Part shown: in pieces, positions 251-54,900 of the stretch
How positions within the stretch are numbered: the stretch's first letter is position 1
Layout: each line of letters opens with the position of its first letter
Assembly (NCBI GenBank): GCA_965205845.1
Contig: CBDBIG010000003.1
Location: forward strand, 670,305 to 734,304
Origin: a bacterium
GTDB taxonomy: Bacteria; SAR324; JACQKK01
DNA length: 64,000 nt
Direction of reading: 5' to 3'
Program-made: the position numbers and the translations under genes
Notes under the pieces: generated by a model
Database searches by the model: none
What the model was told of the DNA's origin: nothing
What the model saw: only the letters and a program-made list of their open reading frames with translations

Positions 251-253
251 CAC

Positions 254-6248: not shown

Positions 6249-6491
6249 AACCGGTGTCGACCTTAAAGGCCTTTGTTTCCTGGGGTTTTGCCATCAAACC
6301 GCTCGGGCAGGTTTCTGTTGTATGGCAGGTGGTAATAAAGGGGGCGGCTTGCTGAGGGAACGGCATGCTAAAGGGGTTAGAGGCTGGGGGCTTTGGGTGT
6401 GCAAGGTGTTGTGTTACTCGCCAAAACCTTGGGAACTACAAAGAAAAATGACCTAAGTAGAAATACCGGGCTCTACAAGAGTTATCTTAAC

Positions 6492-7014
6492 AGGATAGGT
6501 CTTATTTTCAACTCTCCTGCAAATGCTTTTTTGATGCGATTTTTTGCTATTTGAACATATTCGGTTTTTATTTCGACTCCTATAAACCTTCTATTATGTA
6601 TTAAGGAAGCTATTCCGCTTGAACCTGCTCCCATAATAAGGGTCTAACACAGCATTATTCTCATACCTACCAGATAATCTTTTTTGGCAATGCAATCCAT
6701 GCCCAAAATGCCATATGATTCTATTCCTTAATTTTAATCCTAAATCCTTAAAAACACCATACATTAGGATGTCCAAAGGTGTAATCTCCCCATTTTCAAC
6801 GTAATTTCCTACCTGCCAACAAATGCTACCTTTATAACTTAGCACCCTAACACATTCGGTTATTACATCTTTTTGCCATTTTACGTATTGATCAATATTT
6901 TTTTTCTTTTCGTATTCTTTGCCGACGTTGTAGGGAGGAGAAGTGACCACTAAATCTATAGATTTATCAGGTATATCAACAATTCTTTTTAAAATATCGG
7001 AGTTAAACAGTAGA
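6492..7014 (-). pseudogene. Frameshifted beta-class DNA methyltransferase (motif IV SPPY, probably an N4-cytosine/N6-adenine MTase) in an AT-rich islet. It has no canonical start codon and a +1 frameshift before motif I.
   Basis: Frame A gives ...LLFNSDILKRIVDIPDKSIDLVVTSPPYNVGKEYEKK...VLDPYYGS then stop. Shifting one base after 'tatggg' (near 6648-6650) gives GAGSSGIASLIHNRRFIGVEIKTEYVQIAKNRI (motif I plus following helix). An in-frame TAG lies upstream of the N-terminal region with no ATG/GTG/TTG before it. Confidence 0.75.
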
Positions 7015-7150
7015 TAATCCTCGATATTGAGTTGTTCAATTAATGCGGCTGCCTTATCTATGGTACTAACTCCTTGTAAGACAGATGCTTGTTGCGCTCG
7101 ATTCCTCTACAAATTTTTAGTAGGTTTTAGGGAGGGGTGGGGGGGAGGCA

Positions 7151-7345
7151 CCTTTCTCCTTATCTGGCAAAGGCAGACGCCCAACCGCTCAAGCCTACCT
7201 TTCTCCTTATCTGGCAAAGGCAGATGCCCAACTGCTCAAACCTACCTTTCTCCTTATCTGGCAGAGGCAGACGCCCAACCGCTCAAGCCTACCTTTCTCC
7301 TTTCTGGTGAAAGCAGACGCCCAACCGCTCAAACCTACCTTTTCT
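7151..7345. repeat. 48-bp tandem repeat x4 (cctttctccttatctggcaaaggcagacgcccaaccgctcaagcctac), 3' of ppsA.
   Basis: Read directly. Copies are slightly diverged (gatgcc/gacgcc, aaacc/aagcc). Confidence 0.85.
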
Positions 7346-9713
7346 CCGCTTGCAGCAGTTCTTCGCGTGCTTTGCTCAAAAGGTCCGGACGCACAACAAT
7401 GCCTGCGCTGTCTTTGGTTTTAGGCCAGTTGCAAAAAAAGCTTAAATTGGCTGGCGAGATGTGAGATAGCAGCAAAGGCTTGCCAATTGCTTTGGCAGAT
7501 TCAAGCGCTTGTTCCAGCAACCACAGCACCGCGGGGTGTTTTTCGTCTAAAAGGGGCTTGGCGAGCACGTTAGAGGCATCGATCCCCATAGCCAATTGGG
7601 CCACATCGGCCACATGTACAATCAAACCGTCGCAGGCCGTGCCAAACGCGTTCACGGCGAGCATTTGCGCAGGGGTGCGACACAGTAAATGGATTTCTAC
7701 TTGAGAGGCATCGAAGCCATTTTGTTTGAGCAATGCCTTGAGGGCATCCATCTCTTTCAGGGTGTGCACGGCGGGCAGCACCAGCTGAATGTTGTCCATG
7801 CCAATCTCGCCATAAGCCTTGGCCAACGCTTGTACTTCTAAGGCAAAGGCTTCTTCGTAGTCAAAGTCCTCGTAGCGCGCAAGGGAGCGCGCACCCATAA
7901 AGGGGTTGGCTTCGTCGCGTGCATTTTCACGCCCACCAATCAATTGACTTAAAGTATTGGCAGGGGCATCGGGCAACAAGACCCGCACGGGCTTGGGATA
8001 TACGGCCGCCGCAATGTGGGCAATCGATTGAGAAAGCTTGTCGACAAAGGCTTTTTTCTTATCATCCCAACCCTTGGTGGCCTCTGCAAACGCTTTTGCA
8101 TCTTGGCTGGGTGCTTGGATGCAAGCCATGGGATGCACTTTAACCACATCGCGAATTATCTCATCCATGCGCAACAAACCCACACCATCGTTGGGATAAC
8201 GCGCATCTGCAAAAACCGCATCGGGATTGCTGGCCTGCATCCATACCTTCACCTGTGGGCGTTCAAGTTCTGCCAAGCGAATGACGGCTTTTTTATAGGG
8301 TAAAATGCCCTCATACACAACACCACGACTCCCCTGGGCGCACGAAACGGTGACCTCCTGACCATTTTGAATGGCCTTGGTGGCCCCTGTGGCACCCACA
8401 AGGCAAGGCAAACCCAATTCGCGCGAAATAATGGCCGCATGACTGGTACGCCCGCCCGTTTCGGTTACGATGGCAGAAGCAATTTTCATGATAGGGACCC
8501 AATCGGGGTCGGTGCTTTCTGTGACAAGCACCATCCCTTTTTGAAACTCTTTAATGCTCTCTGGCGTTAAAATCACCGAAGCCAAACCGCTGCCAATATT
8601 TTCTCCCACCGCCATCCCGTCGATGAGTACGCTCGACGTTTTTTCAAGGGTCATTTGTTCAATCACCCCTTGTTCACGGCGCGACACCACGGTTTCAGGG
8701 CGTGCTTGCACGATAAACAAATCTCCACTCTCTCCATCTTTGGCCCATTCCATGTCCATGGGTTTGAAGCCGCCCGCCTCTTGCGAGTAATGATCTTCAA
8801 TCAAGGTAGCCCAGTTGGCAAGTTGCACCACCTCGTCTTCACCCAGGCAAAAGCGATCGCTTTCTTCCCCAGGCACGGGGGTGTTCTCAATGCCCCCTCC
8901 ATCGGTTTTGTACACCATGCGTTGCTGTTTGGCGCCCAGCAAAGCGTGGATAATCGATTTTTTGCCTTGCTTTAAGGTGGGCTTGTGCACATACCATTCA
9001 TCGGGGTTAATCGCCCCTTGCACCACATTTTCTCCCAGCCCATAACCGCCAGTAATGTAAATGGCATCATGAAAACCGCTTTCGGTATCGATCGAAAACA
9101 TCACCCCAGCAGAAGATTTATCGCTGCGCACCATTTTTTGGACGGCGATCGAAAGCGCGACCGAGAAGTGGTCAAAGTGGCGTTCTTGGCGATAGGCAAT
9201 GGCTCTGTCGGTAAACAAAGAGGCAAAGCAAGCACGGCAGCTTTCCAGCAAATGCTCATAGCCGCTCACATTCAAGTAGGTATCTTGCTGACCCGCAAAC
9301 GATGCATCGGGCAGGTCTTCAGCCGTGGCCGAAGAACGCACCGCAACGTCAACCAAATCGACCTTGTAGCGTTCGCACAAAACGTTATAGGCATCCACAA
9401 TGGCCTTCACAATTTCATCAGGCATCATGGTGCTCGTTATCAGGTCGCGCACCTGCTTGCCACGGCTCGACAAATTGGTAAGGTCATTCACATCCAAATC
9501 CGAAAGAATTTGCCCAATGCGTGACCTCACCCCCATGCTTTCGACAAAGTGGTTGTATGCATAGGCAGAGACTGCAAAACCATCGGGCACGCGGACCCCT
9601 TTACCGGTTAAATTGGCAAACATTTCGCCCAGAGAAGCGTTTTTGCCCCCCACCATGGGAACATCTTGAATTCCTAGGTCAGAGAACCAATAGATAAATT
9701 TTTCTTCAGCCAC
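7335..9713 (-). CDS. ppsA: Phosphoenolpyruvate synthase (pyruvate, water dikinase).
   Basis: 792 aa with N-terminal MAEEKF..VGGKNASLGEM, a central phosphohistidine region (GGRTSHAAIISRELGLPCLVG) and a C-terminal PEP-utilising domain. Confidence 0.95.
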   Translation of the reverse strand: MAEEKFIYWFSDLGIQDVPMVGGKNASLGEMFANLTGKGVRVPDGFAVSAYAYNHFVESMGVRSRIGQILSDLDVNDLTNLSSRGKQVRDLITSTMMPDEIVKAIVDAYNVLCERYKVDLVDVAVRSSATAEDLPDASFAGQQDTYLNVSGYEHLLESCRACFASLFTDRAIAYRQERHFDHFSVALSIAVQKMVRSDKSSAGVMFSIDTESGFHDAIYITGGYGLGENVVQGAINPDEWYVHKPTLKQGKKSIIHALLGAKQQRMVYKTDGGGIENTPVPGEESDRFCLGEDEVVQLANWATLIEDHYSQEAGGFKPMDMEWAKDGESGDLFIVQARPETVVSRREQGVIEQMTLEKTSSVLIDGMAVGENIGSGLASVILTPESIKEFQKGMVLVTESTDPDWVPIMKIASAIVTETGGRTSHAAIISRELGLPCLVGATGATKAIQNGQEVTVSCAQGSRGVVYEGILPYKKAVIRLAELERPQVKVWMQASNPDAVFADARYPNDGVGLLRMDEIIRDVVKVHPMACIQAPSQDAKAFAEATKGWDDKKKAFVDKLSQSIAHIAAAVYPKPVRVLLPDAPANTLSQLIGGRENARDEANPFMGARSLARYEDFDYEEAFALEVQALAKAYGEIGMDNIQLVLPAVHTLKEMDALKALLKQNGFDASQVEIHLLCRTPAQMLAVNAFGTACDGLIVHVADVAQLAMGIDASNVLAKPLLDEKHPAVLWLLEQALESAKAIGKPLLLSHISPANLSFFCNWPKTKDSAGIVVRPDLLSKAREELLQAEKR

Positions 9714-9829
9714 GCGTTTCTCTCCAGCCTTTCAAAAAAATAGAAAACAACTTACGCATCACAAATGATGCCTCAATAACAGACACTGGAAATGGTGTGT
9801 TTACGCTTGCATGCAAAATACAACACCGG

Positions 9830-10216
9830 TTACGAAATTTTACCCTCTTCTGCCATTTTGGCAATGGCAGCTTCCATGTCATCCACATCCTCGAGGTAGG
9901 GAATGTCATAGGTGTCGCAGATCTTTTTATGCACAGCCCACAACTGAGAGTGGACCGATTCGGGTTTGGTTGAAATCAAAACATCCTCAGCTTTTGTCTG
10001 TTGATACTGGTTTAAGCCACCGATGATTTTGCTAAAATGTTCTTTAAAGGGTGAATCGGCAATGCCTTCAAGGTTGGTCGCCGTTTTAATTGCCATATTA
10101 AAATAATTGGTGGCAGAATCTTGATCTTTGTTCTGCAAATCGGTAATGCCTTGCTTAATGCATTTGTTAAGGCGATTGAACATTCTCAAATTCCGCACAT
10201 TTTTTAAATCAGCCAT
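9830..10216 (-). CDS. Hypothetical protein in a low-GC island.
   Basis: 128-aa ORF in an AT-rich ~950-bp island between ppsA and guaA. No recognisable motif. Confidence 0.4.
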   Translation of the reverse strand: MADLKNVRNLRMFNRLNKCIKQGITDLQNKDQDSATNYFNMAIKTATNLEGIADSPFKEHFSKIIGGLNQYQQTKAEDVLISTKPESVHSQLWAVHKKICDTYDIPYLEDVDDMEAAIAKMAEEGKIS

Positions 10217-10676
10217 AAGCCCGCAATTACTTCCTTAATTTCTATTTTTGTGGATGGATTGTTAGGTTTCGATAAAACTATCGTGCCATTGGGGTAAAGT
10301 ATAACGATACTACCCATTGCACTCAACAGGCATTTTGCCATCTTTCACGGATGCCGATAAAGTACTCGAACGCACACGAAACAATAGTAGGCAAGCAACA
10401 TAGACTGCGTAAAGCCAAACGAGGCCACCCTAGCACAAGTGCATTCCCACGCACCATGCGCGATTATAGCAGGTTAACCCAATGAGGCACGTTTTATTTT
10501 TTTTGCATACGGTGTAATAAAAACCTTATGGGGTGTAACCCTTAGTGTGAGACACATGAACAAGTGTTCTTAATCGCTCAAAAAGCGGGTGTGCATGATG
10601 CCCATGACGCGATGGGGGTCGTTTGGCGGGTGTTTCGCAAAAAAAATGGCCCCTCCATGGTTTATGACACGAAGGA

Positions 10677-12569
10677 TTGATGAACATGCCTGCTTCCCCA
10701 ATACCTTTAGACCAGACCCGTGAGGCCATTGCTCAAAGCCCTTTTGGCGATGAAGACTGGATTGCTGTCCTCAATTTTGGAGGCCAGTACGCGCATCTCA
10801 TCGCCAAAAAATTGCGCCACTTAGGTTGGAATAGTTTGGCGCTTTCGCCCAATGCCCAACCTCATTTGCTAACAGGTGCCAAGGGTCTCGTTTTGTCGGG
10901 TGGTCCTGCCTCAGTCAACGCGCCAAACCTCCCCTTGTTTAACGCGGTCCTCTTGCAAAAAGTGCCTGCTGTGTTGGGGTTGTGTTACGGGCACCAACTG
11001 TTAGCACGAATCCATCAAGGTCATATCGAGCATCTGGCCATGGGGGAATACGGCGCCACCCCCCTTACCCTTACGCCACAAGGGAGCGTTCACCCAATTT
11101 TTAAAAACCTGCCAAGCACTTTAAGTACATGGATGAGCCATGATGACACGGTAACCCAAGCACCCGCACAATTCAACGTGCTGGCCCGGACCGCTTTTTG
11201 CCCAGTGGCAGCAATGGCGCATAAAACCCAGCAGGTGTACGGCATGCAGTTTCATCCTGAGGTGCAAGACAGCGAAGGGGGCACCCAAATTTTGAAAAAT
11301 TTTGCCATCCTTTGCGAGGCAAAACCCAGCCAGCGTTTACAAAACCCGCTTGACTCATTGCTCGCCGATTGCAAAGCCCAAACGGGGGGCAAAAATGTGC
11401 TCATGTTTTTAAGCGGTGGGGTCGACAGTACCGTGGCTTTTGCGTTGTTAACCCGTGCTTTGGGAAGCCAGCGCGTGCAAGGTCTGCTTTTGGACACGGG
11501 CTTTATGCGCCACCAAGAAGCACAGCAAGCCCATCGCATGCTCCATAATTTAGGTTGGAATGTGTGCCTCAAGGATGCGTCTGCCCTGTTTTATCAAGCG
11601 GTAGAGGGCTTGGTTGACCCTCAAGCCAAACGTCAAGCCGTGGGGGAGGCTTTTTTAAAAGTCCGTGAGCAAGCCATGGTAGACATGGCCTTAAACCCCG
11701 CTGAATGGCTCCTAGGTCAAGGCACGTTGTATTCTGATGTGATTGAATCGGGGGGTGAAGAAAATGCCCATGTGATTAAGCATCATCACAATCGCGTTCC
11801 CAAATTGCAAGAATGGCTTAAGGCAGGTCTAGTGGTCGAGCCCTTGCGTACACTTTACAAAGATGAAGTGCGCAAGCTAGGGCATTTGCTTGGCCTCCCA
11901 ACCGAGATGATTACGCGCCACCCTTTTCCTGGGCCAGGGCTAAGCATGAACGTATTGTGTGCCAATGCAGCCACGCCGCCCGCCGAATGGCCGGCAGCCC
12001 AGCGGGCGGTAAGCCAGTGGCTCAACAAAAAAAATCTAGTCGGTGGTGCTTTACCCGTACGTTCGGTGGGGGTGCAAGGCGATATGCGGAGCTACGCCCC
12101 CCCCGCTTTTTTATGGAGTCAAAGCCAAGACTGGGCCTATTTAGAAAGCCTTTCCGGTGAGATTACCAACCGCTTGCGCGAAGTAAATCGCGTGGTGTTA
12201 CAGCTACGCCCGCGCCAGGCCCCGTTGCAATTGCAAGCATTCAAGGCTTACTGTACGCCAAAGCGGGTGGCGTTGTTGCGTCAAGCAGACCATTTGGCCA
12301 CAAAAGCGCTTCAGCGCTGCGGCTGGTTCGAACGCATTTTTCAATTGCTGGTTATTTTGCTTCCTGTTGCGCCTAAATCCCATGCCACCCAAGGCGAATG
12401 CTTGGTGTTGCGCCCCATCATGTCAGAAGATGTGATGACGGGACGTTTTGCACCCATTCCGTGGCCAACACTCCATGCCTTAAGTGAACAACTCATGCAA
12501 CTGCCCAATGTGCAAGGGGTTTTTTACGACATCACCCATAAACCCCCCGCCACTTTTGGCTGGGAGTAA
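10677..12569 (+). CDS. guaA: GMP synthase (glutamine-hydrolysing), extended form.
   Basis: GATase-1 (GLCYGHQLL, FHPEV), PP-loop (FLSGGVDSTVAF), and C-terminal VIKHHHN...EPLRTLYKDEVRKLG...HPFPGPGL, LPVRSVGVQGD, FYDITHKPPATFGWE. At 630 aa it is ~100 aa longer than typical GuaA. Confidence 0.9.
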   Translation: MMNMPASPIPLDQTREAIAQSPFGDEDWIAVLNFGGQYAHLIAKKLRHLGWNSLALSPNAQPHLLTGAKGLVLSGGPASVNAPNLPLFNAVLLQKVPAVLGLCYGHQLLARIHQGHIEHLAMGEYGATPLTLTPQGSVHPIFKNLPSTLSTWMSHDDTVTQAPAQFNVLARTAFCPVAAMAHKTQQVYGMQFHPEVQDSEGGTQILKNFAILCEAKPSQRLQNPLDSLLADCKAQTGGKNVLMFLSGGVDSTVAFALLTRALGSQRVQGLLLDTGFMRHQEAQQAHRMLHNLGWNVCLKDASALFYQAVEGLVDPQAKRQAVGEAFLKVREQAMVDMALNPAEWLLGQGTLYSDVIESGGEENAHVIKHHHNRVPKLQEWLKAGLVVEPLRTLYKDEVRKLGHLLGLPTEMITRHPFPGPGLSMNVLCANAATPPAEWPAAQRAVSQWLNKKNLVGGALPVRSVGVQGDMRSYAPPAFLWSQSQDWAYLESLSGEITNRLREVNRVVLQLRPRQAPLQLQAFKAYCTPKRVALLRQADHLATKALQRCGWFERIFQLLVILLPVAPKSHATQGECLVLRPIMSEDVMTGRFAPIPWPTLHALSEQLMQLPNVQGVFYDITHKPPATFGWE

Positions 12570-12866
12570 CCGTCCTTATATTTTTGGTGGAAGATTGCGG
12601 AATATCGCGAAAGGCACTGTGCCCGCCAATGTGCAAGGGGTTTTTGGTGGGTGATAGTGGGCGTGCCAAGACCCATGCTTTGCGACTGGAAATAACGATG
12701 GGTTTTTATGGTTAATTGCGGTTTCCACGCGGGTTTGTGGTCACTTTATCAGCCTGCAAAAAGAGGGTCCTAATCCCCTTTGGTTACGCTCGCCATGAAC
12801 AAAAGCGCGGGCATGGATACCCTTTGCGGTAGCCGTGCCTTTGATGAGGGCAGCGAGACACGCCAC

Positions 12867-13496
12867 TTAGCCAATGAGTGCCCTCATGGGATCAACTAAC
12901 AACACCAAACCAGCCCCCGTAACGGCAATTCCAGCAACGCGTGGGAACAAGGCAATGGGGGATGCAAGGCGCAAGATGCGCGTGGTAACGGTTGCCGTTC
13001 CAAAAACAAGCAGCATTTGAACGCTGCCCAAGCCAAGCAAATAGCTTGCAATCGGCCCCGTTTGGGCGCCAATTACGGCCTCGCCATAAGCCATGCCGTG
13101 AAACACGCCTGCCAGGGCACCCAAACCGATGCAAACCAAAAGGGGGTAACCACGCCCCAAAGCGAGGACAATGCCAACGCCAACCAGTGACAAAGCCACC
13201 CAGACCTCACCCCATGGAAGGCCTACGCCAAGCACGCTAAAACCCGTGCCAAGGATGGTGCCACCAATAAAAAAAACGGGGAGCAAGATGCGCGAGGCGT
13301 AAACCGCCGCCAGCAAACCAACCGCCAACACAAAGGCAAAATGGTCTATCTCAATCACAGGATGGGCAAAACCCGAAAAAAGACCTTCAAGCAAGGTGCT
13401 GGGGGGGTTGCCTGCCAAGGGGTGGTGCCCAAAAGCAAGAGGGCTAAACAGAAGGTCCAGCCCTAAAAAAAGCCCCACCAACAACCGTAAAGCCAT
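12867..13496 (-). CDS. HupE/UreJ-family membrane protein (putative Ni/Co transporter).
   Basis: Signal peptide followed by FGHHPLAG, FAHPVIEIDH and FHGMAYGE motifs; polytopic membrane protein. The ORF opens at 13577; the likely start is MALRLL. Confidence 0.6.
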   Translation of the reverse strand: MALRLLVGLFLGLDLLFSPLAFGHHPLAGNPPSTLLEGLFSGFAHPVIEIDHFAFVLAVGLLAAVYASRILLPVFFIGGTILGTGFSVLGVGLPWGEVWVALSLVGVGIVLALGRGYPLLVCIGLGALAGVFHGMAYGEAVIGAQTGPIASYLLGLGSVQMLLVFGTATVTTRILRLASPIALFPRVAGIAVTGAGLVLLVDPMRALIG

Positions 13497-14060
13497 GCCC
13501 TTTTTGGAATGTCTTGGATGCACCTGGTGTGGTGTGGGGCCTTTACCCTTTAAAATTGGGTTTAACATGGGGAGCATAAGCCAGCCTTTTTTGATTGGGT
13601 TTGTGGGTTTAAAACATGGATACAGCTTATGGGCTGCTCAATTGAGGATGGGTAACAAAACCGGGCGGGCGGGTCTCTATAAGATCTTTGCTAAAGCATC
13701 AGGTGCAATCTCACGCGCCACAGCGTGTGTAACCAGCGTGTGTAACCATGTGCGTGGTCCGCCAGCCCGCCCCTTGGCGAAACGGACTTAAGTGGCCATC
13801 TAGATAGTGTGATCCATAGCCATGCTTTGTCAATTTTTGGTGAAGCATGGTGTTTAACATAGGGGGGCTTGCCTGTAAGGCAGGGTGAATGTTAGGGTGC
13901 GTGGTGGTTAACCGGGGGCACGTTGGCTGCAAGGTGCTGCAAAGGCAATCCATGGCCATGGGTGGGTGAGATTTTAAGGATGTGTTGGAAAAACAATCTG
14001 ATGGCTTTGATTGGGTTTGTGGGTTTTAGTGTTGACAGATGGGTTTGAGGAGCGCGTTTT

Positions 14061-14951
14061 ATGATGTTGAAAGTGATTTTTTTTGGTTTAGGTAAAATGG
14101 GGTTTCCAATGGCAGAAAACCTGCTTAAAGCAGGCCATGTGGTATACGGGCATGACATTGTAGCGCAAGCGTGCAAGGCTTTTGCAGCGTGCGGAGGAAA
14201 AGTGATTGACGATCTCGACGCTGTATTGGGCGAGGCTGAGGTGGTGGTGAGCATGCTACCCGCAGGTGAGCATGTTAAGGCACTTTACACCGGTGGCCTC
14301 TTTAAAAAGGTGAAGCAGGGGTGTTCCATCATCGACTGCTCCACCATTGAGGTGAGCGTTGCCCGTGAGGTTGCTGCCTTGGCTGCCAAGCAAGGGCTAT
14401 CGTTGCTCGATGCCCCCGTTTCGGGCGGTGTGGGTGGCGCTACGGCGGGGAGCCTAACCTTTATGGTGGGGGGGGATGAAGCGGCGTTTAAAGCGCTTGA
14501 ACCCCTGTTTAAAGCGATGGGGAAGAACATTATTTTGGCAGGCCCAAGCGGGGCGGGGCAAGCTGCCAAAATGTGCAATAACCTCATGTTGGGGATCCAA
14601 ATGCTTGCGGTGTGCGAAGGGTTTAATTTGGCCGATGCCGTGGGTTTGGATCGCGCGAAACTTTTTGCCGTTGCTTCGACCGCTTCAGGGCAGTGTTGGT
14701 CCCTCACCAATTACTGTCCCATACCTGGCCCTGTGCCCACGGCCCCGTCTAATCGCGACTATGCCGCGGGGTTTACGGCAGCCTTGATGCTCAAAGATAT
14801 GAAACTGGGGGATGTGGCTGCGGATGAAACCCAAACGGCGATCCCCCTTGCCCGGATGGCACTGGCACAATACGCAAAATTCTGCGAAAGTGGCGGCGCT
14901 GAAAAGGATTTTTCTGGAGTAATTACCATGCTGCGCAACGCACATTCGTAA
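14061..14951 (+). CDS. mmsB: 3-hydroxyisobutyrate dehydrogenase.
   Basis: N-terminal GxGxxG Rossmann (FFGLGKMGFPMAENL) and 6PGDH/HIBADH family blocks. Sits upstream of a HIBCH-like gene. Confidence 0.8.
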   Translation: MMLKVIFFGLGKMGFPMAENLLKAGHVVYGHDIVAQACKAFAACGGKVIDDLDAVLGEAEVVVSMLPAGEHVKALYTGGLFKKVKQGCSIIDCSTIEVSVAREVAALAAKQGLSLLDAPVSGGVGGATAGSLTFMVGGDEAAFKALEPLFKAMGKNIILAGPSGAGQAAKMCNNLMLGIQMLAVCEGFNLADAVGLDRAKLFAVASTASGQCWSLTNYCPIPGPVPTAPSNRDYAAGFTAALMLKDMKLGDVAADETQTAIPLARMALAQYAKFCESGGAEKDFSGVITMLRNAHS

Positions 14952-14968
14952 AACGGCTCGAACAAAGC

Positions 14969-16060
14969 ATGAAAACCACGCAAGCCGACCTATTAATTAC
15001 GCAACGCGGTTGTCTGGGGGTTATTGTGCTCAATAAGCCCGCCACCTTGAATGCCTTGAATATGAACATGGTGCAGGGCATTACCAAACAATTGCAGGCA
15101 TGGCTGCATGATAATAGCGTTGCGCGGGTGGTGCTTACTGGCGCGGGGGAGCGGGCCTTTTGTGCGGGCGGGGACATTCGTCATTTGTATGAAACGGGCG
15201 TGGGTAACCCCGCCGCAGGTCCCAGCCTTGAAGCGCAGCGTTTTTTTTCCCGTGAATACCAATTAAACTACCGCATTCATCGCTATCCTAAGCCGATTAT
15301 TGCCCTGATTAACGGCATTACCATGGGGGGCGGTGCGGGCCTTGCCATGCATGCGCACCTGCGTATTGCGGGGTCTTTGTCCAGGTTTGCCATGCCCGAA
15401 AACGCGTTGGGGTTTTTCCCGGATGTGGGAGCCACACGCTTTCTCAATCAATGTGGGGGGGGGATTGGCCTCTGGCTAGGATTGACGGGTAGTGCCGTAA
15501 AAGGGAGTGCGATGGTAAGTGCAGGCCTCGCGCAAATGGCTGTGCCCAATGAAGCCTTTGAAGATGTGGTGCAGGTGCTGCAGCGGCCTTTGCCTGAGCC
15601 TTTGGATGTGCTTGGATTGCAGCACTTGTTAACACCCTATGCCTTGCCTGAGACGACCCTCGAACACCAGGCGCAAGTGGATGCCGTCTTTGCCAGCCCA
15701 AGGGATTTGGCGGCCGTGTTTGCAGCGTTGAAACGCTTCGACAACGGCCCGTCTGCGTCATGGGCTGGGCAGATTCTAAAAGCGTTGGCCAAGGCTTCTC
15801 CGACCTCACTTGCCTTGTGCTTTCAACAACTAAACCAAGGCAAGGAGTTGGATGCAAAAGCAGCCCTTGTGCGTGAGTTTCGCATGGCGATGCATGCGCT
15901 ACGGCGGCCCGATTTTTATCAGGGGGTGAAGCGTGCCATCCTCGAGCGGAGCTACAAGCCCCAATGGCAGCCCGCCACCTTGGATGCGGTTACACCCGCT
16001 GTCGTCGCTGCGTTTTTTGAACCCCCTGCATGTGGTGATTTAACATTGCCTTCATCTTAA
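14969..16060 (+). CDS. 3-hydroxyisobutyryl-CoA hydrolase (crotonase superfamily).
   Basis: LNKPATLNALN...VLTGAGERAFCAGGDI crotonase fold with a long C-terminal domain typical of HIBCH. Confidence 0.75.
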   Translation: MKTTQADLLITQRGCLGVIVLNKPATLNALNMNMVQGITKQLQAWLHDNSVARVVLTGAGERAFCAGGDIRHLYETGVGNPAAGPSLEAQRFFSREYQLNYRIHRYPKPIIALINGITMGGGAGLAMHAHLRIAGSLSRFAMPENALGFFPDVGATRFLNQCGGGIGLWLGLTGSAVKGSAMVSAGLAQMAVPNEAFEDVVQVLQRPLPEPLDVLGLQHLLTPYALPETTLEHQAQVDAVFASPRDLAAVFAALKRFDNGPSASWAGQILKALAKASPTSLALCFQQLNQGKELDAKAALVREFRMAMHALRRPDFYQGVKRAILERSYKPQWQPATLDAVTPAVVAAFFEPPACGDLTLPSS

Positions 16061-16071
16061 ATCTCAACCCT

Positions 16072-16563
16072 TTGAGGACTGTTTTTAACATGGCGCAAAA
16101 AACGCAGAAAGTATGCTACGAGGCCCGTTATTTTCAGGATTTTTCTGTGGGGGATCTGTTTCAAACGGGTACCCATCGGGTGACCAAAGAGGAAATTATA
16201 GCCTTTGCACGCCAGTACGACCCCCAGCCTTACCATTTAGACGAAAGTGCAGCGGAAAAAAGCATGTTCAAAGGCCTGATTGCCAGCGGGTTTATGACCC
16301 TTGGGATTGGTTTTGCCCTTTCTTACCGAACCGGTGTGCTCGACCACATGATGGGGGGGCGGGGCCTTGATGAATTGCGCTGGTTGGTGCCTGTGCGCCC
16401 GGGGGATGTTTTAATGGCAAAAGCACGTGTCGTTTCCACGCGCCCTTCTTCGCGTGATGTGTCTCGGGGGACGGTGGTGTTTGATTACAGCATCATCAAT
16501 CAGCGCAATGAGGCCGTGTTGACGATGAAAGCACACCAAATGATTGCAACGCGTCCCCAATGA
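16072..16563 (+). CDS. MaoC-like (R)-specific enoyl-CoA hydratase / hot-dog dehydratase.
   Basis: 163 aa; MaoC dehydratase motif region (FKGLIASGFMTLGIGFAL). Confidence 0.7.
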   Translation: MRTVFNMAQKTQKVCYEARYFQDFSVGDLFQTGTHRVTKEEIIAFARQYDPQPYHLDESAAEKSMFKGLIASGFMTLGIGFALSYRTGVLDHMMGGRGLDELRWLVPVRPGDVLMAKARVVSTRPSSRDVSRGTVVFDYSIINQRNEAVLTMKAHQMIATRPQ

Positions 16564-16800
16564 TGCTGCCTTTCTGCAAGGGGTTGTTCAAGGCGATTGT
16601 CTTTGAGAATTTCGTTCACATCCAAAAAGGGGGGGTCGTGTGCTGCTGCCTTTCTGCAAGGGGTTGTTCAAGGCGATTGTCTTTGAGAATTTCGTTCGCA
16701 TCCAAAAAGGAGGGGTCGTGTGCTGCTGCCTTTCTGCAAGGGGTTGTTCAAGGCGATTGTCTTTGAGAATTTCGTTCGCATCCAAAAAGGAGGGACCTTT
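16561..16800. repeat. 80-bp tandem repeat x3, between the MaoC-like gene and the methyltransferase.
   Basis: The unit gctgcctttctgcaaggggttgttcaaggcgattgtctttgagaatttcgttc(a/g)catccaaaaag... recurs at 16563, 16643 and 16723. Confidence 0.85.
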
Positions 16801-16905
16801 GCCTGAATGCTTTGACGGACACCCTACAGGATTATGGGGTTTTTTGGAAACAATCAAGAAAGTAGGGCAAAAAGGAGGCGCAAACCTCCTTTATAATATT
16901 GAAGC

Positions 16906-17724
16906 GTGATACGAGAGACAAGATGCGCACCGCTGACAAATCGAATTATTTCGGCAGATTGCATTGACGCCACAGCCAAAATGCCAGCAGATCTGGTGGA
17001 TTTAACCGTTTTTTCCCCGCCCTACGATACCATTCGGGACTATCAAAAGGGTTGGCAGATCGATTTTCCCGTACTGGGAAAAAATGTGTATCGCGTTACC
17101 AAAACAGGGGGCCTTTGCGCGGTTGTTATCAACGATGGCACGCGGCGCTTTGCCAAGTCGCTTACCAGTTTTAGGTTGGTGGTCGATTGGTGTGATAAAG
17201 CGGGTTGGCGTCTGTTTGAAACGTGTATTTATCACCGTGATGGCAACCCAGGGGCGTGGTGGAAAAACCGCTTTAGGGTCGATCATGAGTATATCTTCTT
17301 GTTTTTAAAAGGCGAACGTCCCAAAACCTTTCACAAAGAACCCCTCATGATTCCTAGCAAGCATGCAGGCAGGCGCTACTCGGGGACAGATCGGCTGACC
17401 AACGGTCAATTCAAAAAAATTGTTCCAAAAACGGTCAACCCATTTAAATGCAGAGGGACGGTTTGGCGCTATGCCACGAGCAATACAGAAGGTAACAAAC
17501 TAAAACGTCAACATCCCGCCACCTACCCCGATCAACTGGCAGAAGATTTAATTTTGTGTTTTTCAAATGCGGGTGAAGTGGTCCTTGACCCCATGTGTGG
17601 GAGTGGGACCACGTGTGTGATGGCCTTAAAAAATGAGCGTCAATTTATTGGCCTTGAAATCAATGAAGCATACTGTAAGGTGGCCCAAATGCGCCTTCAA
17701 CAAGAATGTGCACAGCCGATCTAA
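16906..17724 (+). CDS. Solitary beta-class DNA methyltransferase (SPPY motif IV then DPMCGSGTT motif I; N4C/N6A type).
   Basis: VDLTVFSPPY...HPATYPDQLAEDLI...VVLDPMCGSGTTCVMALKNERQFIGLEINEAYCKVA. No adjacent nuclease gene; embedded among acyl-CoA catabolic genes. Confidence 0.85.
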   Translation: MIRETRCAPLTNRIISADCIDATAKMPADLVDLTVFSPPYDTIRDYQKGWQIDFPVLGKNVYRVTKTGGLCAVVINDGTRRFAKSLTSFRLVVDWCDKAGWRLFETCIYHRDGNPGAWWKNRFRVDHEYIFLFLKGERPKTFHKEPLMIPSKHAGRRYSGTDRLTNGQFKKIVPKTVNPFKCRGTVWRYATSNTEGNKLKRQHPATYPDQLAEDLILCFSNAGEVVLDPMCGSGTTCVMALKNERQFIGLEINEAYCKVAQMRLQQECAQPI

Positions 17725-18004
17725 AGCCGCGGCATCTTACTAAACTTGCTTTCAAAAAGGCGGGTGCATGGGGTGTGGGTGCGCAAAATGGATTGCGCGC
17801 ATCTCCCCCCCTCCCCATCTCACCTTCGCACCTTTTGATGCGCTGCGCTGCGAAGCCAAAAGCGTCGTTTGATACGCGGCGGGGCGGATCATGTTGATGA
17901 AGGCCTGATCTGAAAAGATCACAAAAGCCTTGCATTTATCGCTTCATTTGGGTAGTAAGGCGTAGGTCTCCTATTCCGGATGCACGGTTTTCTAATATCA
18001 ACAA

Positions 18005-31277: not shown

Positions 31278-31343
31278 TACCGCAAGCGCTGGTTGTGAGA
31301 GTTGACAAATTTTAAAACCTTATTTGTGAAAGGAGTCCCTACT

Positions 31344-52292: not shown

Positions 52293-52756
52293 GCTCTAAG
52301 CATCAACCATAGGGTAATCTACGCTTCTTTATGCTAAAATCATGCTACGGCGGCGTTTTAGCAAGGCCGGAATATCCCAAAAAATGCAGTTTTTGTTGGC
52401 TACGTAAAACCACATTTGTGTTACCCTAGATCCTATTAAGGTGTGCTGTGTACGCGGGATTTGATATCGACCCACTTTCTGCCCGTACTAATGTGGACGC
52501 ACCTTGTTTTGCAACCCTCCCAATTGCAACCCTCCCAATTGCATGGCGTGCCAAGGGAATTGGGGATACGACCCTGGCCAAGGCAGCAGGTTGTTGAGGG
52601 TGCTAGGGATTGTGCTTGGGTTGGCGGGGGATGCCTAAATTTTGAACCATTTTTGTGGACTGCCATCCTTTCCGCACCATGGCACGACATAAAAAACAAC
52701 GGGGTTTTGCTATTTTTACACCATTGTCGCTTGTCACTACCCCCCATGCCCTTAGC

Positions 52757-52917
52757 CCTTAGATTGACCTTTTTAGAATAAATGCCTTTACAAAGTACTT
52801 GGCTATGCATAAATACCAAAGCCTTTGTGAGCCTTTTAAAAAAAGCATGAGCAAGCCCTTTGACCCCCGTTAAAAAAACCATCACTCCCCCTCAAATTGT
52901 TAAAAACTCAGAGAAAA
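52757..52917. repeat. Left copy of a ~160-bp direct repeat (rnr leader / 5' coding sequence) bracketing the MTase cassette.
   Basis: ctaccccccatgcccttagcccttagattgacctttttagaataaatgcctttacaaagtacttggctatgcataaataccaaagcctttgtgagcc... is ~93% identical to 54719-54900. Confidence 0.9.
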
Positions 52918-53840
52918 AATGGATTAACAAAATCCATACTGGTGATGCGCAAAAAATATTAAGGGACATGCCATCAGATTTTATTGATCTAAGTTTTTGG
53001 TCCCCGCCATATTTTGTAGGTAAGGAGTATGAGAAGTACCTATCTTTTGATGATTGGAAGAGACTGCTTGAAGGGGTTGTTTGTGGGCATGCCCGTGTTA
53101 TGAGGGACGGTGCTTTTATGGTGATAAACATCAACGATATTTTATGCTTTCCTGATCCGAGCATGCCTAGGTATATGTCTAACAATATTGGTAATAAGAG
53201 GGTACCCGTCACCAGGCAAGATGCATTAGATGCCAAACGTAAAAACCCTGATGCAAACCGTTATGAACTAGCAAAAATTCTTGGGTGTAGCGAACAAACT
53301 GTACAGCGCAGACTTGAGCATAACAATATACGTGGTGGGAAGCAGGCTACCGCCACAAAAGTTTTGTCAGTAGCTGGAATGCTACAAGCGTGGAGTGAAG
53401 CAGCGGGGCTCTATCTGTATGACCGCCGCATTTGGCATAAAGACCCATGCTGGGCAAATAGCCGATGGCATAGCAATTCATATAGATCGATTGATGAGTT
53501 TGAATATCTTTTCATATTCTGGAAACCAGGCATTGTTGACATTGACCGGTCTCGCCTTAAAAAAAACGAATGGGCTGAATGGGGGTCACGGGGGGTTTGG
53601 AATATAAAATCAATTCGCCACAATAACCGCCATGAGAGTGAATTTCCTGAAATGCTGGCGGAACGAGTTATACGCCTTTTGTCTAATCCTGAAGGTGTTG
53701 TGCTAGACCCGTTTGTTGGTTCCGGCACCACAACTGCCGTTGCCCGCCGCCTCAAACGCAGATATGTTGGCATAGACAGGCTTGATAAATATGCCGTAAT
53801 TGCCAGGGATAGAACGAATGCAATCGATAAAACGGATTGA
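52860..53840 (+). CDS. Beta-class DNA methyltransferase (SPPY...DPFVGSGTT) with an inserted HTH-like segment, in a lower-GC cassette.
   Basis: IDLSFWSPPYFVGKEYEK (motif IV region resembling the 6.5-kb pseudogene) ... EFPEMLAERVIRLL...VVLDPFVGSGTTTAVARRLKRRYVGID. The ORF opens at TTG inside the duplicated rnr leader; the first codons (TPVKKTITPPQIVKNSE) mirror the RNase R N-terminus. Confidence 0.85.
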   Translation: MTPVKKTITPPQIVKNSEKKWINKIHTGDAQKILRDMPSDFIDLSFWSPPYFVGKEYEKYLSFDDWKRLLEGVVCGHARVMRDGAFMVININDILCFPDPSMPRYMSNNIGNKRVPVTRQDALDAKRKNPDANRYELAKILGCSEQTVQRRLEHNNIRGGKQATATKVLSVAGMLQAWSEAAGLYLYDRRIWHKDPCWANSRWHSNSYRSIDEFEYLFIFWKPGIVDIDRSRLKKNEWAEWGSRGVWNIKSIRHNNRHESEFPEMLAERVIRLLSNPEGVVLDPFVGSGTTTAVARRLKRRYVGIDRLDKYAVIARDRTNAIDKTD

Positions 53841-54459
53841 GGATGCCGAGAGATCTTGCATCAGATTAGTGTCTCGCGCCCTACGAGATTATAGGGATAA
53901 GGCGGTTGAAATCTTCAGAGAAGAATCCGATAAACCTGGTAATATAGCAGAAGATGTAACAAGGGAAGCTATGGATGCTCTTGGTACGTCACGGGTTCCG
54001 ATACGGCTGTATGGTAAAGTTGATGATAAACGTGCCGCGATAGTCTTTTTGTCGGATAGAGAAGTTGAAGTCGCCATGATGGTTGACCCCAAAGCTGAGA
54101 AGGATGGAAATACCGCGACCATTCAAATGTCTCAGACATCAATGCAAATTAGGCAATATAGGCAGGGGGAGGAAATTTGTGTTAATGGTACGCTACCGCC
54201 GTTTATTGAAAGAGAAGGCAAAAAACTTCAAACCATAACCATAATTGTAAAATATATTTACACCGAAATAACGACGCAGAAGTTTATCTTGGAAAAGATT
54301 AAAGTCGCCTGCATACCTAACGGTCTACTTCAGGAAAGTTACAACCCCAATGCACAAGATGGTTTTTGGAGGGTAGGCCGTAATGCACCTTCATTGGGGG
54401 AGGATTTTCGGGTGCGCCTCTCATTTAGTGATCTTCAAAAAAAGCAGAATGGCGAGTAG
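53818..54459 (+). CDS. Unknown protein translationally coupled to the MTase; candidate cognate restriction endonuclease or other partner (unclassified).
   Basis: ATG at 53818 overlaps the MTase stop (53840) by 23 bp; 214 aa, lower GC, no recognised family. A possible PD-(D/E)xK-like stretch (VDDK...SDREVEVAMMVDPK) is speculative. Confidence 0.45.
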   Translation: MQSIKRIEDAERSCIRLVSRALRDYRDKAVEIFREESDKPGNIAEDVTREAMDALGTSRVPIRLYGKVDDKRAAIVFLSDREVEVAMMVDPKAEKDGNTATIQMSQTSMQIRQYRQGEEICVNGTLPPFIEREGKKLQTITIIVKYIYTEITTQKFILEKIKVACIPNGLLQESYNPNAQDGFWRVGRNAPSLGEDFRVRLSFSDLQKKQNGE

Positions 54460-54718: not shown

Positions 54719-54900
54719 TAACTACCCCCCATGCCCTTAGCCCTTAGATTGACCTTTTTAGAATAAATGCCTTTACAAAGTACTTGGCTATGCATAAATA
54801 CCAAAGCCTTTGTGAGCCTTTTAAAAACAGCATGAGCAGCCCTTTGACCCCCGTTAAAAAAACCGTCCCCCCCCTCGAAATTGTCAAAAATTCAGAGAAT
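54719..54900. repeat. Right copy of the ~160-bp direct repeat (authentic rnr leader and start).
   Basis: See the left copy. The right copy has intact atgagcagccctttgacccccgttaaaaaaacc (MSSPLTPVKK); the left copy has a 1-bp insertion (agcaagccc) that breaks that frame. Confidence 0.9.

What the first reader, a model, noticed from the sequence alone, without database searches (positions are those of the whole stretch)
6450..17724. Three beta-class SPPY DNA methyltransferases within 64 kb: one frameshifted pseudogene, one orphan, one cassette-borne
Three MTase genes sit at 6492-7014 (minus strand, AT-rich islet), 16906-17724 (orphan, inside the valine/acyl-CoA operon) and 52860-53840 (with partner). 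All have motif IV as S-P-P-Y followed later by motif I (DPxxGSGTT), the arrangement typical of N4-cytosine/N6-adenine beta-class enzymes. The pseudogene and the cassette MTase share the extended block SPPYxVGKEYEK, suggesting they are paralogs. This density suggests repeated acquisition and decay of R-M systems, and the orphan may have an epigenetic regulatory role.
Basis: partly seen in the sequence, partly recalled or inferred. Interest (0 to 1): 0.55.

Follow-up and report, generated by a model that had tools for sequence, protein, structure and literature searches.

The report
Three unrelated restriction-modification methylase relics
The window holds three DNA methyltransferase genes from three different, separately acquired restriction-modification systems (one dead remnant, one intact gene without a partner, one near-complete two-gene cassette inserted beside the RNase R gene); this is ordinary bacterial genome biology.

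Summary
All three loci are real beta-class (PF01555) methyltransferase genes with an N-terminal SPPY motif and a C-terminal AdoMet motif. A six-frame HMM scan finds no fourth. They are not paralogs of one another, because each is 60-86% identical to genes in other phyla but only about 22-39% (motif blocks only) to the others.

1. 7061-6482 (minus strand) is the wreck of a BglII-family R-M system. It is an AT-rich islet (34% GC) with no canonical start codon, a deletion of about 97 codons, a +1 frameshift, a truncated 3' end and no endonuclease gene.
2. 16906-17724 is intact and solitary. It sits in a 1.4-kb gap in an otherwise tight valine-catabolism operon. Its family occurs with a 225-234 aa partner of unknown family in Roseiflexus, and alone in other bacteria and on viral contigs.
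3. 52860-54459 is an M-R operon whose endonuclease belongs to the SfiI family. It is flanked by 183-bp direct repeats (95% identical) that duplicate the upstream region and 5' end of the RNase R gene. This fits "insertion with long target duplication". The methylase's only usable start codon and first 20 codons lie in the duplicated copy. The endonuclease has a -1 frameshift in an A7 tract, nine codons before its ancestral stop.

Acquisition and decay are supported. A regulatory role for the solitary methylase is untested.

The parts
6482..7061 (-). Pseudogene of a BglII-family-associated beta-class (SPPY) DNA methyltransferase. It has ATA where a start codon is expected (7061-7059, 8 nt after AAGGAG). 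An internal deletion of about 97 codons has its junction at about 6650-6661. A +1 frameshift in motif I lies at about 6634-6640. The 3' end is truncated, and the cognate endonuclease gene is absent.
   Evidence: Pfam profile positions 5-86 and 190-220 are matched in two frames. There is 82% and 79% nucleotide identity to L012 on either side of a gap of about 265 nt. Relatives carry an overlapping PF09195 Endonuc-BglII gene, and tblastn finds no trace of it in the window.
6440..7100 (.). AT-rich islet (GC 0.30-0.41 per 100 nt, against at least 0.52 on both sides) that contains the pseudogene. It marks foreign DNA.
   Evidence: The closest DNA relative, L012, comes from a contig of 30% GC.
16906..17724 (+). 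Intact solitary (orphan) beta-class SPPY DNA methyltransferase of 272 aa with a GTG start. It lies in the same orientation as the flanking valine-catabolism genes.
   Evidence: PF01555 E 1.5e-34. It is 64-74% identical to a large family and keeps every family-invariant residue, including N-terminal residues upstream of the first ATG. Neither the 225-234 aa partner seen in L003 and L004 nor any other endonuclease homologue is present. The flanking genes are identified.
16564..18004 (.). A 1.44-kb gap in an otherwise tightly packed operon (other junctions there are 12-18 nt). It holds a 3 x 80-nt tandem repeat (16564-16794), the orphan methylase gene and 280 nt of non-coding DNA. This is the probable extent of the inserted or rearranged DNA.
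   Evidence: No flanking direct repeats were found.
52736..52918 (+). Left copy of the 183-bp direct repeat. It is a duplicate of the upstream region and first codons of the RNase R gene. It carries a +1 A that puts the rnr ATGs out of frame, leaving a 22-codon upstream ORF, and it contains the methylase's TTG start at 52860.
   Evidence: 175 of 184 positions identical; the first 107 nt are identical. A 47-mer from the repeat occurs exactly twice in the window and never in shuffles.
52860..53840 (+). Methyltransferase of the cassette (326 aa, SPPY, with an internal helix-turn-helix-like insert). Codons 1-20 come from the duplicated rnr 5' end. Similarity to family members begins at W21, at the repeat boundary.
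   Evidence: PF01555 E 1.6e-37. Relatives are 60-74% identical and all invariant residues are kept. N23, G28 and D29 are invariant, so the annotated ATG at codon 37 (P0250, 290 aa) would cut off conserved sequence.
53818..54459 (+). SfiI-family restriction endonuclease gene (213 aa as it reads now). It overlaps the methylase gene by 23 nt. A -1 frameshift in the A7 tract at 54437-54443 replaces the ancestral tail AEWRVVEV with QNGE. The ancestral stop is at 54468-54470.
   Evidence: PF11487 E 1.4e-44. PDB 2ezv (SfiI) E 1e-17, with SfiI D79, D100 and K102 aligned to D, D and K. The same M-R arrangement with 214-216 aa endonucleases occurs in L013, L014 and L015. Full-length relatives are 218-245 aa. 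The frameshift is seen against L013, which has A8.
54721..54902 (+). Right copy of the direct repeat. This is the functional upstream region and 5' end of the RNase R gene (54784-56973), so it represents the target site.

Best explanation
The three genes are footprints of three independent horizontal acquisitions of Type II restriction-modification (R-M) modules. They are caught at different stages of the usual R-M life cycle, sit among housekeeping genes, and have no integrase or transposase nearby.

(a) 52.7-54.9 kb. An M-then-R operon with an SfiI-family endonuclease inserted into the 5' end of the RNase R gene (rnr). The insertion duplicated 183 bp of the target. rnr keeps an intact copy downstream. 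The methylase acquired the duplicated rnr upstream region and its first 20 codons from that duplicate. The methylase is predicted to methylate its recognition site, probably at cytosine N4 given the SPPY motif, and so to protect the chromosome from the endonuclease. The endonuclease now carries a frameshift nine codons before its ancestral stop, in an A7 tract that is A8 in the closest relative. This is either the first step of decay, a tolerated change, or a homopolymer sequencing error.

(b) 16.9 kb. This is a solitary but fully intact methylase. Its family is paired elsewhere with a 225-234 aa protein that is probably an endonuclease. Here the gene either arrived alone or outlived its partner, inside a valine-catabolism operon. 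It probably still methylates DNA.

(c) 6.5-7.1 kb. This is a dead remnant of a BglII-family R-M system, recently taken up from a low-GC donor. The endonuclease gene is gone and the methylase gene is broken in four ways.

Shown: family memberships, gene order in relatives, the lesions, the repeats and the GC contrast. Inferred: the direction of the events (insertion, not deletion), current enzyme activity, and base and sequence specificity.
For: The three are not close to one another.

Pseudogene: relatives are 60-86% identical and 305-320 aa long. They are always followed by an overlapping PF09195 BglII-type endonuclease gene. The lesions are mapped. There is no endonuclease remnant. GC is 0.34 against 0.506 for the window.

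Orphan: all invariant residues are retained. A partner is present in L003 and L004 (53% identical to each other). The equivalent downstream ORF is shorter in L005 (185 aa, lacking about the first 50 residues) and only 67 aa in L006. The gene is solitary in the closest relative, L021, and on 12 viral contigs. The operon around it is tight except at this gene.

Cassette: the endonuclease is in the SfiI family with catalytic D, D and K aligned. The same M-R architecture occurs in an unrelated 2-Mb contig and in Methylomirabilis. The direct repeats are 183 bp, 95% identical and unique to these two places. Similarity to relatives starts exactly at the repeat boundary. Insert GC is 0.437. Pfam scans of 43 of the 58 listed ORFs of at least 150 aa, including nearly all that do not lie inside a longer ORF (42825-44012 and 62089-63849 were not scanned), found no integrase or transposase. 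This mode of insertion is documented for R-M systems (PMC2853133).
Against: No empty-site comparator exists. Neither the species-representative genomes nor the metagenome collection held a close relative of the host. The direction of every event is therefore inferred.

The methylase of the cassette has only a TTG start with no obvious Shine-Dalgarno sequence, behind a short upstream ORF, so its expression is uncertain. The endonuclease frameshift may be an assembly error. SfiI sites (GGCCN5GGCC) are not depleted in the window (5 found, 1.2 expected). That says nothing either way about activity, and the recognition site of this short SfiI-family enzyme is unknown. The partner protein of the orphan's family has no Pfam, NCBIfam or PDB match, so calling it an endonuclease is an inference from gene order.
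Confidence: 0.8

Rival explanations
1. One reading: the pseudogene and the cassette methylase are paralogs produced by duplication within this genome.
For: They share the 12-residue block SPPY(N/F)VGKEYEK, and both are beta-class SPPY enzymes.
Against: Similarity is confined to two motif blocks (39% over 57 aa and 34% over 38 aa) and is 26% overall. Each has relatives of 60-86% identity in other phyla. Those relatives are linked to different endonuclease families, PF09195 against PF11487. GC contents differ (0.34 against 0.44). The shared block is close to the consensus of both families.
Confidence: 0.03
2. The 16906 methylase is a domesticated orphan, similar in role to Dam or CcrM. It would be co-transcribed with the valine-catabolism operon and its methylation would regulate gene expression or replication.
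For: The gene is intact, keeps every invariant residue and has no endonuclease partner. It has the same orientation as the operon. The family is unusually conserved, at 64-74% identity across phyla. Solitary members exist elsewhere.
Against: The closest relative sits in a different neighbourhood. Family members occur in R-M pairs and on viral contigs, which is the pattern of a mobile gene and not of a core regulator. The gene sits in an anomalous 1.44-kb gap next to tandem repeats, and its GC (0.477) is below the 0.52-0.57 of 1-kb stretches covering neighbouring genes. Conservation at this locus in relatives could not be tested.
Confidence: 0.1
3. The 183-bp direct repeats did not arise from insertion with target duplication. 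They would come instead from a pre-existing local duplication of the rnr 5' region into which the cassette later landed, or from integration of a circular intermediate carrying a copy of rnr sequence by homologous recombination.
For: The two copies are only 95% identical, with differences clustered in the 3' 75 nt. This allows for an older duplication or for a copy imported from a related strain. This genome is rich in local tandem duplications.
Against: The cassette's own sequence starts exactly where the repeat ends, and nothing except M, R and 260 nt lies between the copies. That is the signature described for long-target-duplication insertions (PMC2853133). The other tandem arrays in the window are head-to-tail with no unique spacer.
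Confidence: 0.12
4. Some of the lesions, especially the A7 frameshift in the endonuclease and the +1 A in the left repeat, are assembly or sequencing errors. In that case the cassette is fully intact, and the methylase is an rnr'-M fusion translated from the rnr ATG.
For: The frameshift lies in a homopolymer. The downstream out-of-frame sequence still encodes AEWRVVEV followed by a stop, matching the relatives. Several related contigs come from long-read metagenome assemblies, judging by their names.
Against: The +1 A in the repeat is AA against A, not a long homopolymer. The raw reads are not available, so this cannot be tested.
Confidence: 0.25

Closest known systems
SfiI restriction-modification system (R.SfiI, PDB 2ezv; Pfam PF11487) and its short-form relatives, such as the pair in Candidatus Methylomirabilis
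   Same: The endonuclease matches PF11487 (E 1.4e-44) and SfiI itself (E 1e-17), with D79, D100 and K102 aligned. The M-then-R operon with a short overlap is the same as in L013 and L014. The methylase has SPPY. From my own memory of REBASE, M.SfiI is an m4C enzyme.
   Different: The protein is 213 aa against 269 aa for SfiI, and identity to SfiI is low. The recognition sequence is unknown. The C-terminal WR residues that are nearly invariant in the short-form family are lost through a frameshift. The methylase carries a conserved internal helix-turn-helix-like insert, and its N-terminus is derived from the host gene.
BglII-type R-M systems (Pfam PF09195 Endonuc-BglII, with a beta-class N4-cytosine methylase)
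   Same: The pseudogene is 60-86% identical in its surviving parts to methylases that are immediately followed by a PF09195 endonuclease of about 180 aa.
   Different: Here the endonuclease gene is missing and the methylase gene is non-functional. The partner endonucleases of the relatives are about 180 aa, against 223 aa for BglII (from memory), so their specificity need not be AGATCT.
Insertion of R-M gene complexes with long target duplication (Nobusato et al. 2000; Furuta, Abe and Kobayashi 2010, PMC2853133)
   Same: Both R and M lie in a 1.8-kb insert flanked by direct repeats far longer than 30 bp. There are no mobility genes, and the insert GC is below the genome average (criteria).
   Different: No comparator genome with an empty site is available. 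The duplication reaches into a coding region and supplies the methylase with its start codon and first 20 codons. I did not find this described in the passages I read.
Solitary (orphan) DNA methyltransferases such as Dam and CcrM, and phage-borne orphan methylases
   Same: The 16906 gene is intact, lacks an endonuclease, and belongs to a family that is also found alone on viral contigs.
   Different: It scores far below the NCBIfam cut-offs for CcrM (67.6 bits against 830) and for the PRK11524 family (81.7 against 292). It has SPPY instead of DPPY. There is no evidence of clade-wide conservation or of a regulatory role.

Membership tests
Beta-class amino-methyltransferases (Pfam PF01555 N6_N4_Mtase) | A match to PF01555 above the gathering score | tested here: met
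   Scores are 120.3, 130.0 and 60.1 bits against a cut-off of 26.7 for the orphan, the cassette gene and the main pseudogene fragment. The C-terminal pseudogene fragment scores 21.6 bits, below the cut-off on its own.
Beta-class amino-methyltransferases (Pfam PF01555 N6_N4_Mtase) | Circularly permuted motif order: motif IV ((S/D)PP(Y/F)) N-terminal and motif I (FxGxG-like) C-terminal | tested here: met
   SPPY lies at residues 37-40 (orphan) and 48-51 (cassette). DPMCGSGTT and DPFVGSGTT lie near residues 228 and 283. In the pseudogene, SPPY precedes DPYMGAGSSG.
N4-cytosine-specific methyltransferases | Serine in motif IV (SPPY/SPPF), as opposed to D/N in N6-adenine enzymes (established motif rule, with exceptions) | tested here: met
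   All three have SPPY. The motif is only suggestive.
N4-cytosine-specific methyltransferases | Demonstrated m4C product at a defined recognition sequence | not testable with these tools
   This needs SMRT or nanopore methylome data or an enzyme assay. Source annotations of 'adenine-specific' are generic labels.
SfiI-family Type II restriction endonuclease (PF11487) | A match to PF11487 above the cut-off and similarity to R.SfiI | tested here: met
   153.1 bits against a cut-off of 25. PDB 2ezv E 1e-17.
SfiI-family Type II restriction endonuclease (PF11487) | Catalytic PD...(D/E)xK residues (SfiI D79, D100, K102; residue numbers from memory of Vanamee et al. 2005) | tested here: met
   GKVDDKR and MMVDPKA align with GFIDYKR and LLVDAKA of SfiI. 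D69 and K92 are invariant and D90 is nearly invariant among 10 family members.
SfiI-family Type II restriction endonuclease (PF11487) | An intact C-terminus with the near-invariant W-R of the short-form family | tested here: not met
   A -1 frameshift in the A7 tract at 54437-54443 replaces AEWRVVEV with QNGE. The ancestral tail is still readable out of frame.
SfiI-family Type II restriction endonuclease (PF11487) | Recognition of GGCCNNNNNGGCC and tetrameric two-site cleavage | not testable with these tools
   The site count in the window (5 against 1.2 expected) is uninformative.
BglII-type R-M system | A methylase orthologous to those paired with PF09195 endonucleases | tested here: met
   Identity is 60-86% on surviving segments. 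Nucleotide identity to L012 is 82%. The partners are shown.
BglII-type R-M system | Presence of the PF09195 endonuclease gene next to the methylase gene | tested here: not met
   tblastn with two partner proteins finds nothing in the window or in 6100-6700.
R-M insertion with long target duplication (criteria of PMC2853133) | Both R and M homologues in an insert under 20 kb, flanked by direct repeats over 30 bp, with no mobility genes | tested here: met
   The insert is about 1.8 kb (52919-54720) and holds M and R only. The repeats are 183 and 182 bp at 95% identity. The neighbouring genes are a 1260-aa protein with no Pfam hit and RNase R.
R-M insertion with long target duplication (criteria of PMC2853133) | A related genome with a single copy of the repeat and no insert (empty site) | not testable with these tools
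   No close relative of the host was found in genome contigs or metagenome contigs. Exact-protein look-ups for four window-encoded proteins, including the deposited 247-aa form of the orphan (P0001), found no record.
Orphan (solitary) DNA methyltransferase | No cognate endonuclease gene adjacent | tested here: met
   The flanking genes are a MaoC dehydratase and an acyl-CoA dehydrogenase. The family's usual partner is absent from the whole window.
Orphan (solitary) DNA methyltransferase | Conserved at the same locus across a clade, with a regulatory phenotype (the Dam/CcrM type) | not testable with these tools
   No relatives of the host are available. NCBIfam CcrM and PRK11524 scores are far below their cut-offs.

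The most novel reading that the evidence does not exclude
The intact solitary methylase at 16906-17724 has been domesticated. It would be co-transcribed with the valine-catabolism operon, and its (m4C?) methylation would act as an epigenetic signal, so that a member of a mobile R-M methylase family has become a metabolic-operon-linked regulator. Separately, the SfiI-type cassette may be driven by the duplicated rnr upstream region and switched on and off by its A7/A8 tract.
Probability: 0.1. Interest if true: 0.5.

Novelty: new member of a known kind. Interest (0 to 1): 0.25.

Why it matters
This is mainly a clean textbook illustration. Within 64 kb of housekeeping DNA and with no transposase or integrase, one can see a near-complete R-M cassette, a solitary methylase and a dead remnant, each from a different family. 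That supports the view of R-M modules as minimal selfish mobile elements that are repeatedly gained and lost.

The most instructive detail is the 183-bp target duplication at rnr, which supplies the incoming methylase with its upstream region, start codon and first 20 codons. If confirmed by an empty-site relative, it would add a well-resolved case, in an apparently poorly sampled lineage, to the known phenomenon of insertion with long target duplication. It would also show how such an insertion can rewire expression of the incoming genes.

For genome annotation, it corrects three gene models. Two deposited models start too late (247 aa and 290 aa), and one fragment is annotated as a 118-aa protein.

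Tried and rejected
- Empty-site and synteny tests failed. The GuaA-like protein against the species-representative genomes found only 27-30% matches in Firmicutes. The 3-hydroxyisobutyryl-CoA hydrolase against metagenome contigs found only 32-51% matches. Exact-protein look-ups for four window-encoded proteins, including the deposited 247-aa form of the orphan (P0001), found no record. The host could not be identified. No rRNA is present, only one tRNA-Phe.
- A search for remnants of the missing endonucleases found nothing, for both the BglII-type partner and the partner of the orphan's family.
- The partner protein of the orphan's family has no Pfam, NCBIfam or PDB match, so its family remains unnamed.
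- Promoter and terminator scans around the orphan and the cassette gave counts at or below the shuffled expectation. Whether the orphan is co-transcribed with the operon is undecided.
- A test for restriction-site avoidance was uninformative, because 64 kb is too little sequence. AGATCT occurs 6 times and SfiI sites 5 times.
- I checked whether the tandem repeats next to two of the methylase loci (47 nt x 4 and 80 nt x 3) are part of the elements. I rejected this, because similar arrays with unrelated units occur at five other places in the window and neither islet has flanking direct repeats.
- A literature search for M.SfiI base specificity returned nothing useful. That statement therefore rests on my memory.


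Full report
**1. The observation**

ORF listing and Pfam confirm three PF01555 (N6_N4_Mtase) loci:
- 16906-17724 on the plus strand: 272 aa, E 1.5e-34.
- 52860-53840 on the plus strand: 326 aa, E 1.6e-37.
- Two overlapping frames on the minus strand: 6594-6950 (E 3.8e-16) and 6482-6634 (E 2.4e-4).

I built HMMs from the relatives of each gene and ran them on every six-frame segment of at least 30 aa. They hit these three places and no others. All three have SPPY as motif IV near the N-terminus and the AdoMet-binding motif I near the C-terminus, which is the beta-class order. Motif I is DPMCGSGTT in the orphan and DPFVGSGTT in the cassette gene.

The surrounding genes are housekeeping or metabolic: hemC, ppsA, a guaA-like gene, a valine-catabolism cluster, branched-chain amino acid ABC transport, mreBCD, rodZ and RNase R. 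I scanned 43 of the 58 listed ORFs of at least 150 aa against Pfam. Most of the rest lie inside longer ORFs, and 42825-44012 and 62089-63849 were not scanned. No integrase or transposase was found.

**2. The three genes are not close relatives of each other**

- Cassette against orphan: 22% identity over 308 aligned positions with 22% gaps.
- Repaired pseudogene against cassette: 39% over 57 aa around SPPY and 34% over 38 aa around motif I, and nothing else.
- Pseudogene against orphan: similar to the previous comparison.

Each gene nevertheless has hundreds of relatives at 60-86% identity in other phyla. The shared block SPPYxVGKEYEK is real, but it is close to the consensus of both families: SPPYNIGKEYEKK and SPPYFVGKxYEAH. 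The paralogy idea is therefore rejected.

**3. The pseudogene (7061-6482, minus strand)**

Intact relatives are 305-320 aa. Relatives looked up from three different sources all carry the same arrangement: a 1.2-Mb contig, Cloacimonas-type contigs, and a 2-kb contig of 30% GC. In each, the methylase gene is followed, with a 4-nt overlap, by an endonuclease of about 180 aa matching PF09195 Endonuc-BglII.

The window copy has four lesions:
- There is no ATG, GTG or TTG between the upstream stop and the GTG inside 'DLVVTSPPY'. An ATA lies 8 nt after an AAGGAG, where a start codon would be expected. That this is a mutated ATG is my inference.
- An in-frame deletion of about 97 codons runs from just after SGRYE to NEND-VLDP. 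It removes the central part of the protein between the surviving N-terminal and C-terminal blocks. At the DNA level, L012 positions 647-977 and 1243-1397 match window 6991-6661 (82%) and 6650-6495 (79%), leaving about 265 nt unmatched.
- One extra base splits motif I between two frames (DPYY / MGAGSSG).
- The last 25 or so codons and the whole endonuclease gene are missing.

The islet has sharp GC boundaries: 0.30-0.41 between about 6440 and 7100, against at least 0.52 outside. The 82% DNA identity to a contig of 30% GC indicates fairly recent uptake from a low-GC donor, followed by rapid decay.

**4. The orphan (16906-17724)**

The gene is intact. It keeps every invariant residue of a ten-sequence family alignment, and the conserved N-terminal segment (NxIxxxDC) lies upstream of the first ATG. 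The GTG at 16906 is therefore the likely start, not the start of the deposited 247-aa model.

The family is very widespread, with 64-74% identity in Roseiflexus, Anaerolineae and Armatimonadetes. Its gene contexts vary:
- In a 3.1-Mb contig (L003) and in a Roseiflexus genome (L004), the methylase gene is followed, overlapping by 4 nt in L004 and separated by 1 nt in L003, by a 225-234 aa protein. The two partner proteins are 53% identical to each other, so this is a conserved pair. The partner is presumably an endonuclease, although it matches no Pfam, NCBIfam or PDB entry.
- In R. castenholzii DSM 13941 (L005) the equivalent ORF is 185 aa and lacks about the first 50 residues. In L006 it is reduced to 67 aa.
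- In the closest relative (74% identity, L021) and on 12 viral contigs (47-57% identity), the methylase is solitary.

In the window there is no trace of the partner. The gene occupies a 1.44-kb gap between the MaoC and acyl-CoA dehydrogenase genes, in a cluster whose upstream junctions are 12-18 nt. This looks like an insertion into a tight operon. No flanking repeats or remnants define how it arrived. Promoter and terminator scans are uninformative.

**5. The cassette (52736-54902)**

The partner gene (ATG 53818 to 54459) overlaps the methylase gene by 23 nt. It matches PF11487 RestrictionSfiI (E 1.4e-44) and SfiI itself (2ezv, E 1e-17), with SfiI D79, D100 and K102 aligned to D, D and K. The same arrangement, a methylase gene followed by an overlapping SfiI-family gene of 214-216 aa, occurs next to the two relatives examined, including Methylomirabilis. 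The endonuclease family is small, with 206 representative clusters among 1.84 billion proteins, and full-length members of 218-245 aa align end to end with this one.

The cassette is bracketed by direct repeats at 52736-52918 and 54721-54902. They share 175 of 184 positions, and the first 107 nt are identical. A 47-mer from the repeat occurs exactly twice in the window and never in shuffles. The right copy is the upstream region and first codons of the RNase R gene. Similarity of the methylase to its relatives begins at W21, exactly where the left repeat ends. N23, G28 and D29 are invariant, so the protein must start upstream of them. The only in-frame start is the TTG at 52860, which lies inside the duplicated rnr sequence and in the rnr reading frame.

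The methylase gene is therefore a chimera. Its upstream region, start codon and first 20 codons come from the duplicated target. An extra A in the left copy throws the rnr ATGs out of frame and leaves a 22-codon upstream ORF whose stop overlaps the TTG region.

The structure meets the published operational criteria for 'insertion with long target duplication': R and M are both in the insert, the insert is under 20 kb, the repeats are over 30 bp and there are no mobility genes (PMC2853133). The one criterion it lacks is the empty-site comparator, which I could not obtain.

The endonuclease is not pristine. Where the closest relative has CA8G, the window has CA7G (54437-54443). This shifts the frame nine codons before the ancestral stop, so the tail reads QNGE instead of AEWRVVEV. 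W and R are nearly invariant in the family, and the ancestral tail and stop are still perfectly readable out of frame. The change is therefore very recent decay, a slippage-prone switch, or a homopolymer sequencing error.

**6. Mechanism and comparison with known systems**

The best reading is three independent acquisitions of Type II R-M modules at different stages of the usual cycle of gain, endonuclease loss, solitary methylase and pseudogene. SPPY suggests N4-cytosine methylation for all three. This rests on the established motif rule. From memory, M.SfiI and M.BglII are m4C enzymes. Neither the base nor the recognition sequence can be determined here.

A Dam/CcrM-like regulatory role for the orphan is not excluded. 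However, the family's mobility and the different gene context of its nearest relative argue against it, and NCBIfam scores for CcrM and PRK11524 are far below their cut-offs.

**7. Verdict**

The paralogy claim is wrong, and the regulatory suggestion is untested. Everything fits known kinds of system. The one feature worth a note is the long target duplication, which donates the rnr upstream region, start codon and first 20 codons to the incoming methylase. Interest is low to moderate.

Noticed in passing
window 1-258, 1297-1628, 7150-7347, 16564-16794, 39949-40475, 57138-57224: There are many long-unit tandem repeat arrays with unrelated units: 95 nt x 2.7, 84 nt x 4.0 at 100% identity, 47 nt x 4.2, 80 nt x 2.9, 53 nt x 9.9 and 43 nt x 2. 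Most are intergenic. The 84-nt array lies inside ORF 254-2752 (a Peripla_BP_6 protein) and would encode four identical 28-aa repeats. The 80-nt array starts at the stop codon of the MaoC gene. This appears to be a genome-wide habit and is not specific to the methylase islets.
   Followed up: partly
window 53214-53325 (residues ~119-155 of the cassette methylase): The SfiI-type cassette methylase and all its relatives carry an insert of about 60 aa with a helix-turn-helix-like core (ELAKILGCSEQTxQRRxEHNNxRGG, largely invariant). Pfam gives only weak HTH_AsnC-type and HTH_23 hits (E ~0.002). It could serve recognition of a bipartite site or autoregulation in place of a separate C protein.
   Followed up: partly
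L003:6767-7444, L004:6843-7547 (also L005:6991-7548, shorter): A conserved 225-234 aa protein (53% identity between two distant hosts) lies directly downstream of the orphan's homologues. It has no Pfam, NCBIfam or PDB match. It is possibly an uncharacterised Type II restriction endonuclease family (it contains a segment reading ...INWD(L/M)K...).
   Followed up: partly
window 48510-52292 (minus strand): A 1260-aa ORF immediately upstream of the cassette has no Pfam match at E <= 1e-5.
   Followed up: no
window 10677-12569 and the whole window: The host lineage seems poorly sampled. The 630-aa GMP-synthase-like protein and the 3-hydroxyisobutyryl-CoA hydrolase found no close relative in 185,579 species-representative genomes or in the JGI metagenome contigs. 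Exact-protein look-ups failed, although a deposited 877,621-bp contig carries identical methylase fragments (P0001, P0134, P0250).
   Followed up: partly
window 25890-27197 / 27394-28701 and 29830-31071 / 31302-32585: There are two tandem gene duplications in the branched-chain amino acid transport and acyl-CoA region: two 435-aa Peripla_BP_6 binding proteins, and two AMP-binding proteins of about 420 aa.
   Followed up: no
whole window: CCGG and AGCT occur at about half the expected frequency (69 against 143 and 119 against 235). GGGNCCC (5 against 29) and GCCNGGC (9 against 32) are also depleted. This might reflect other active restriction systems elsewhere in the genome, or compositional bias.
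   Followed up: no
window 52809-52877: In the left repeat copy, the former rnr start now opens a 22-codon ORF (MHKYQSLCEPFKKSMSKPFDPR). Its stop lies 15 nt downstream of, and out of frame with, the methylase's TTG start. This arrangement could couple or restrict methylase translation.
   Followed up: no
L034 (Geoalkalibacter subterraneus plasmid pGSUB1, NZ_CP010312.1, 185417-186427): A 53%-identical relative of the cassette methylase sits on a 242-kb plasmid beside an Eco57I-type methylase-domain gene. It is followed by 1 kb with no listed gene, where an unannotated or decayed endonuclease gene might lie.
   Followed up: no
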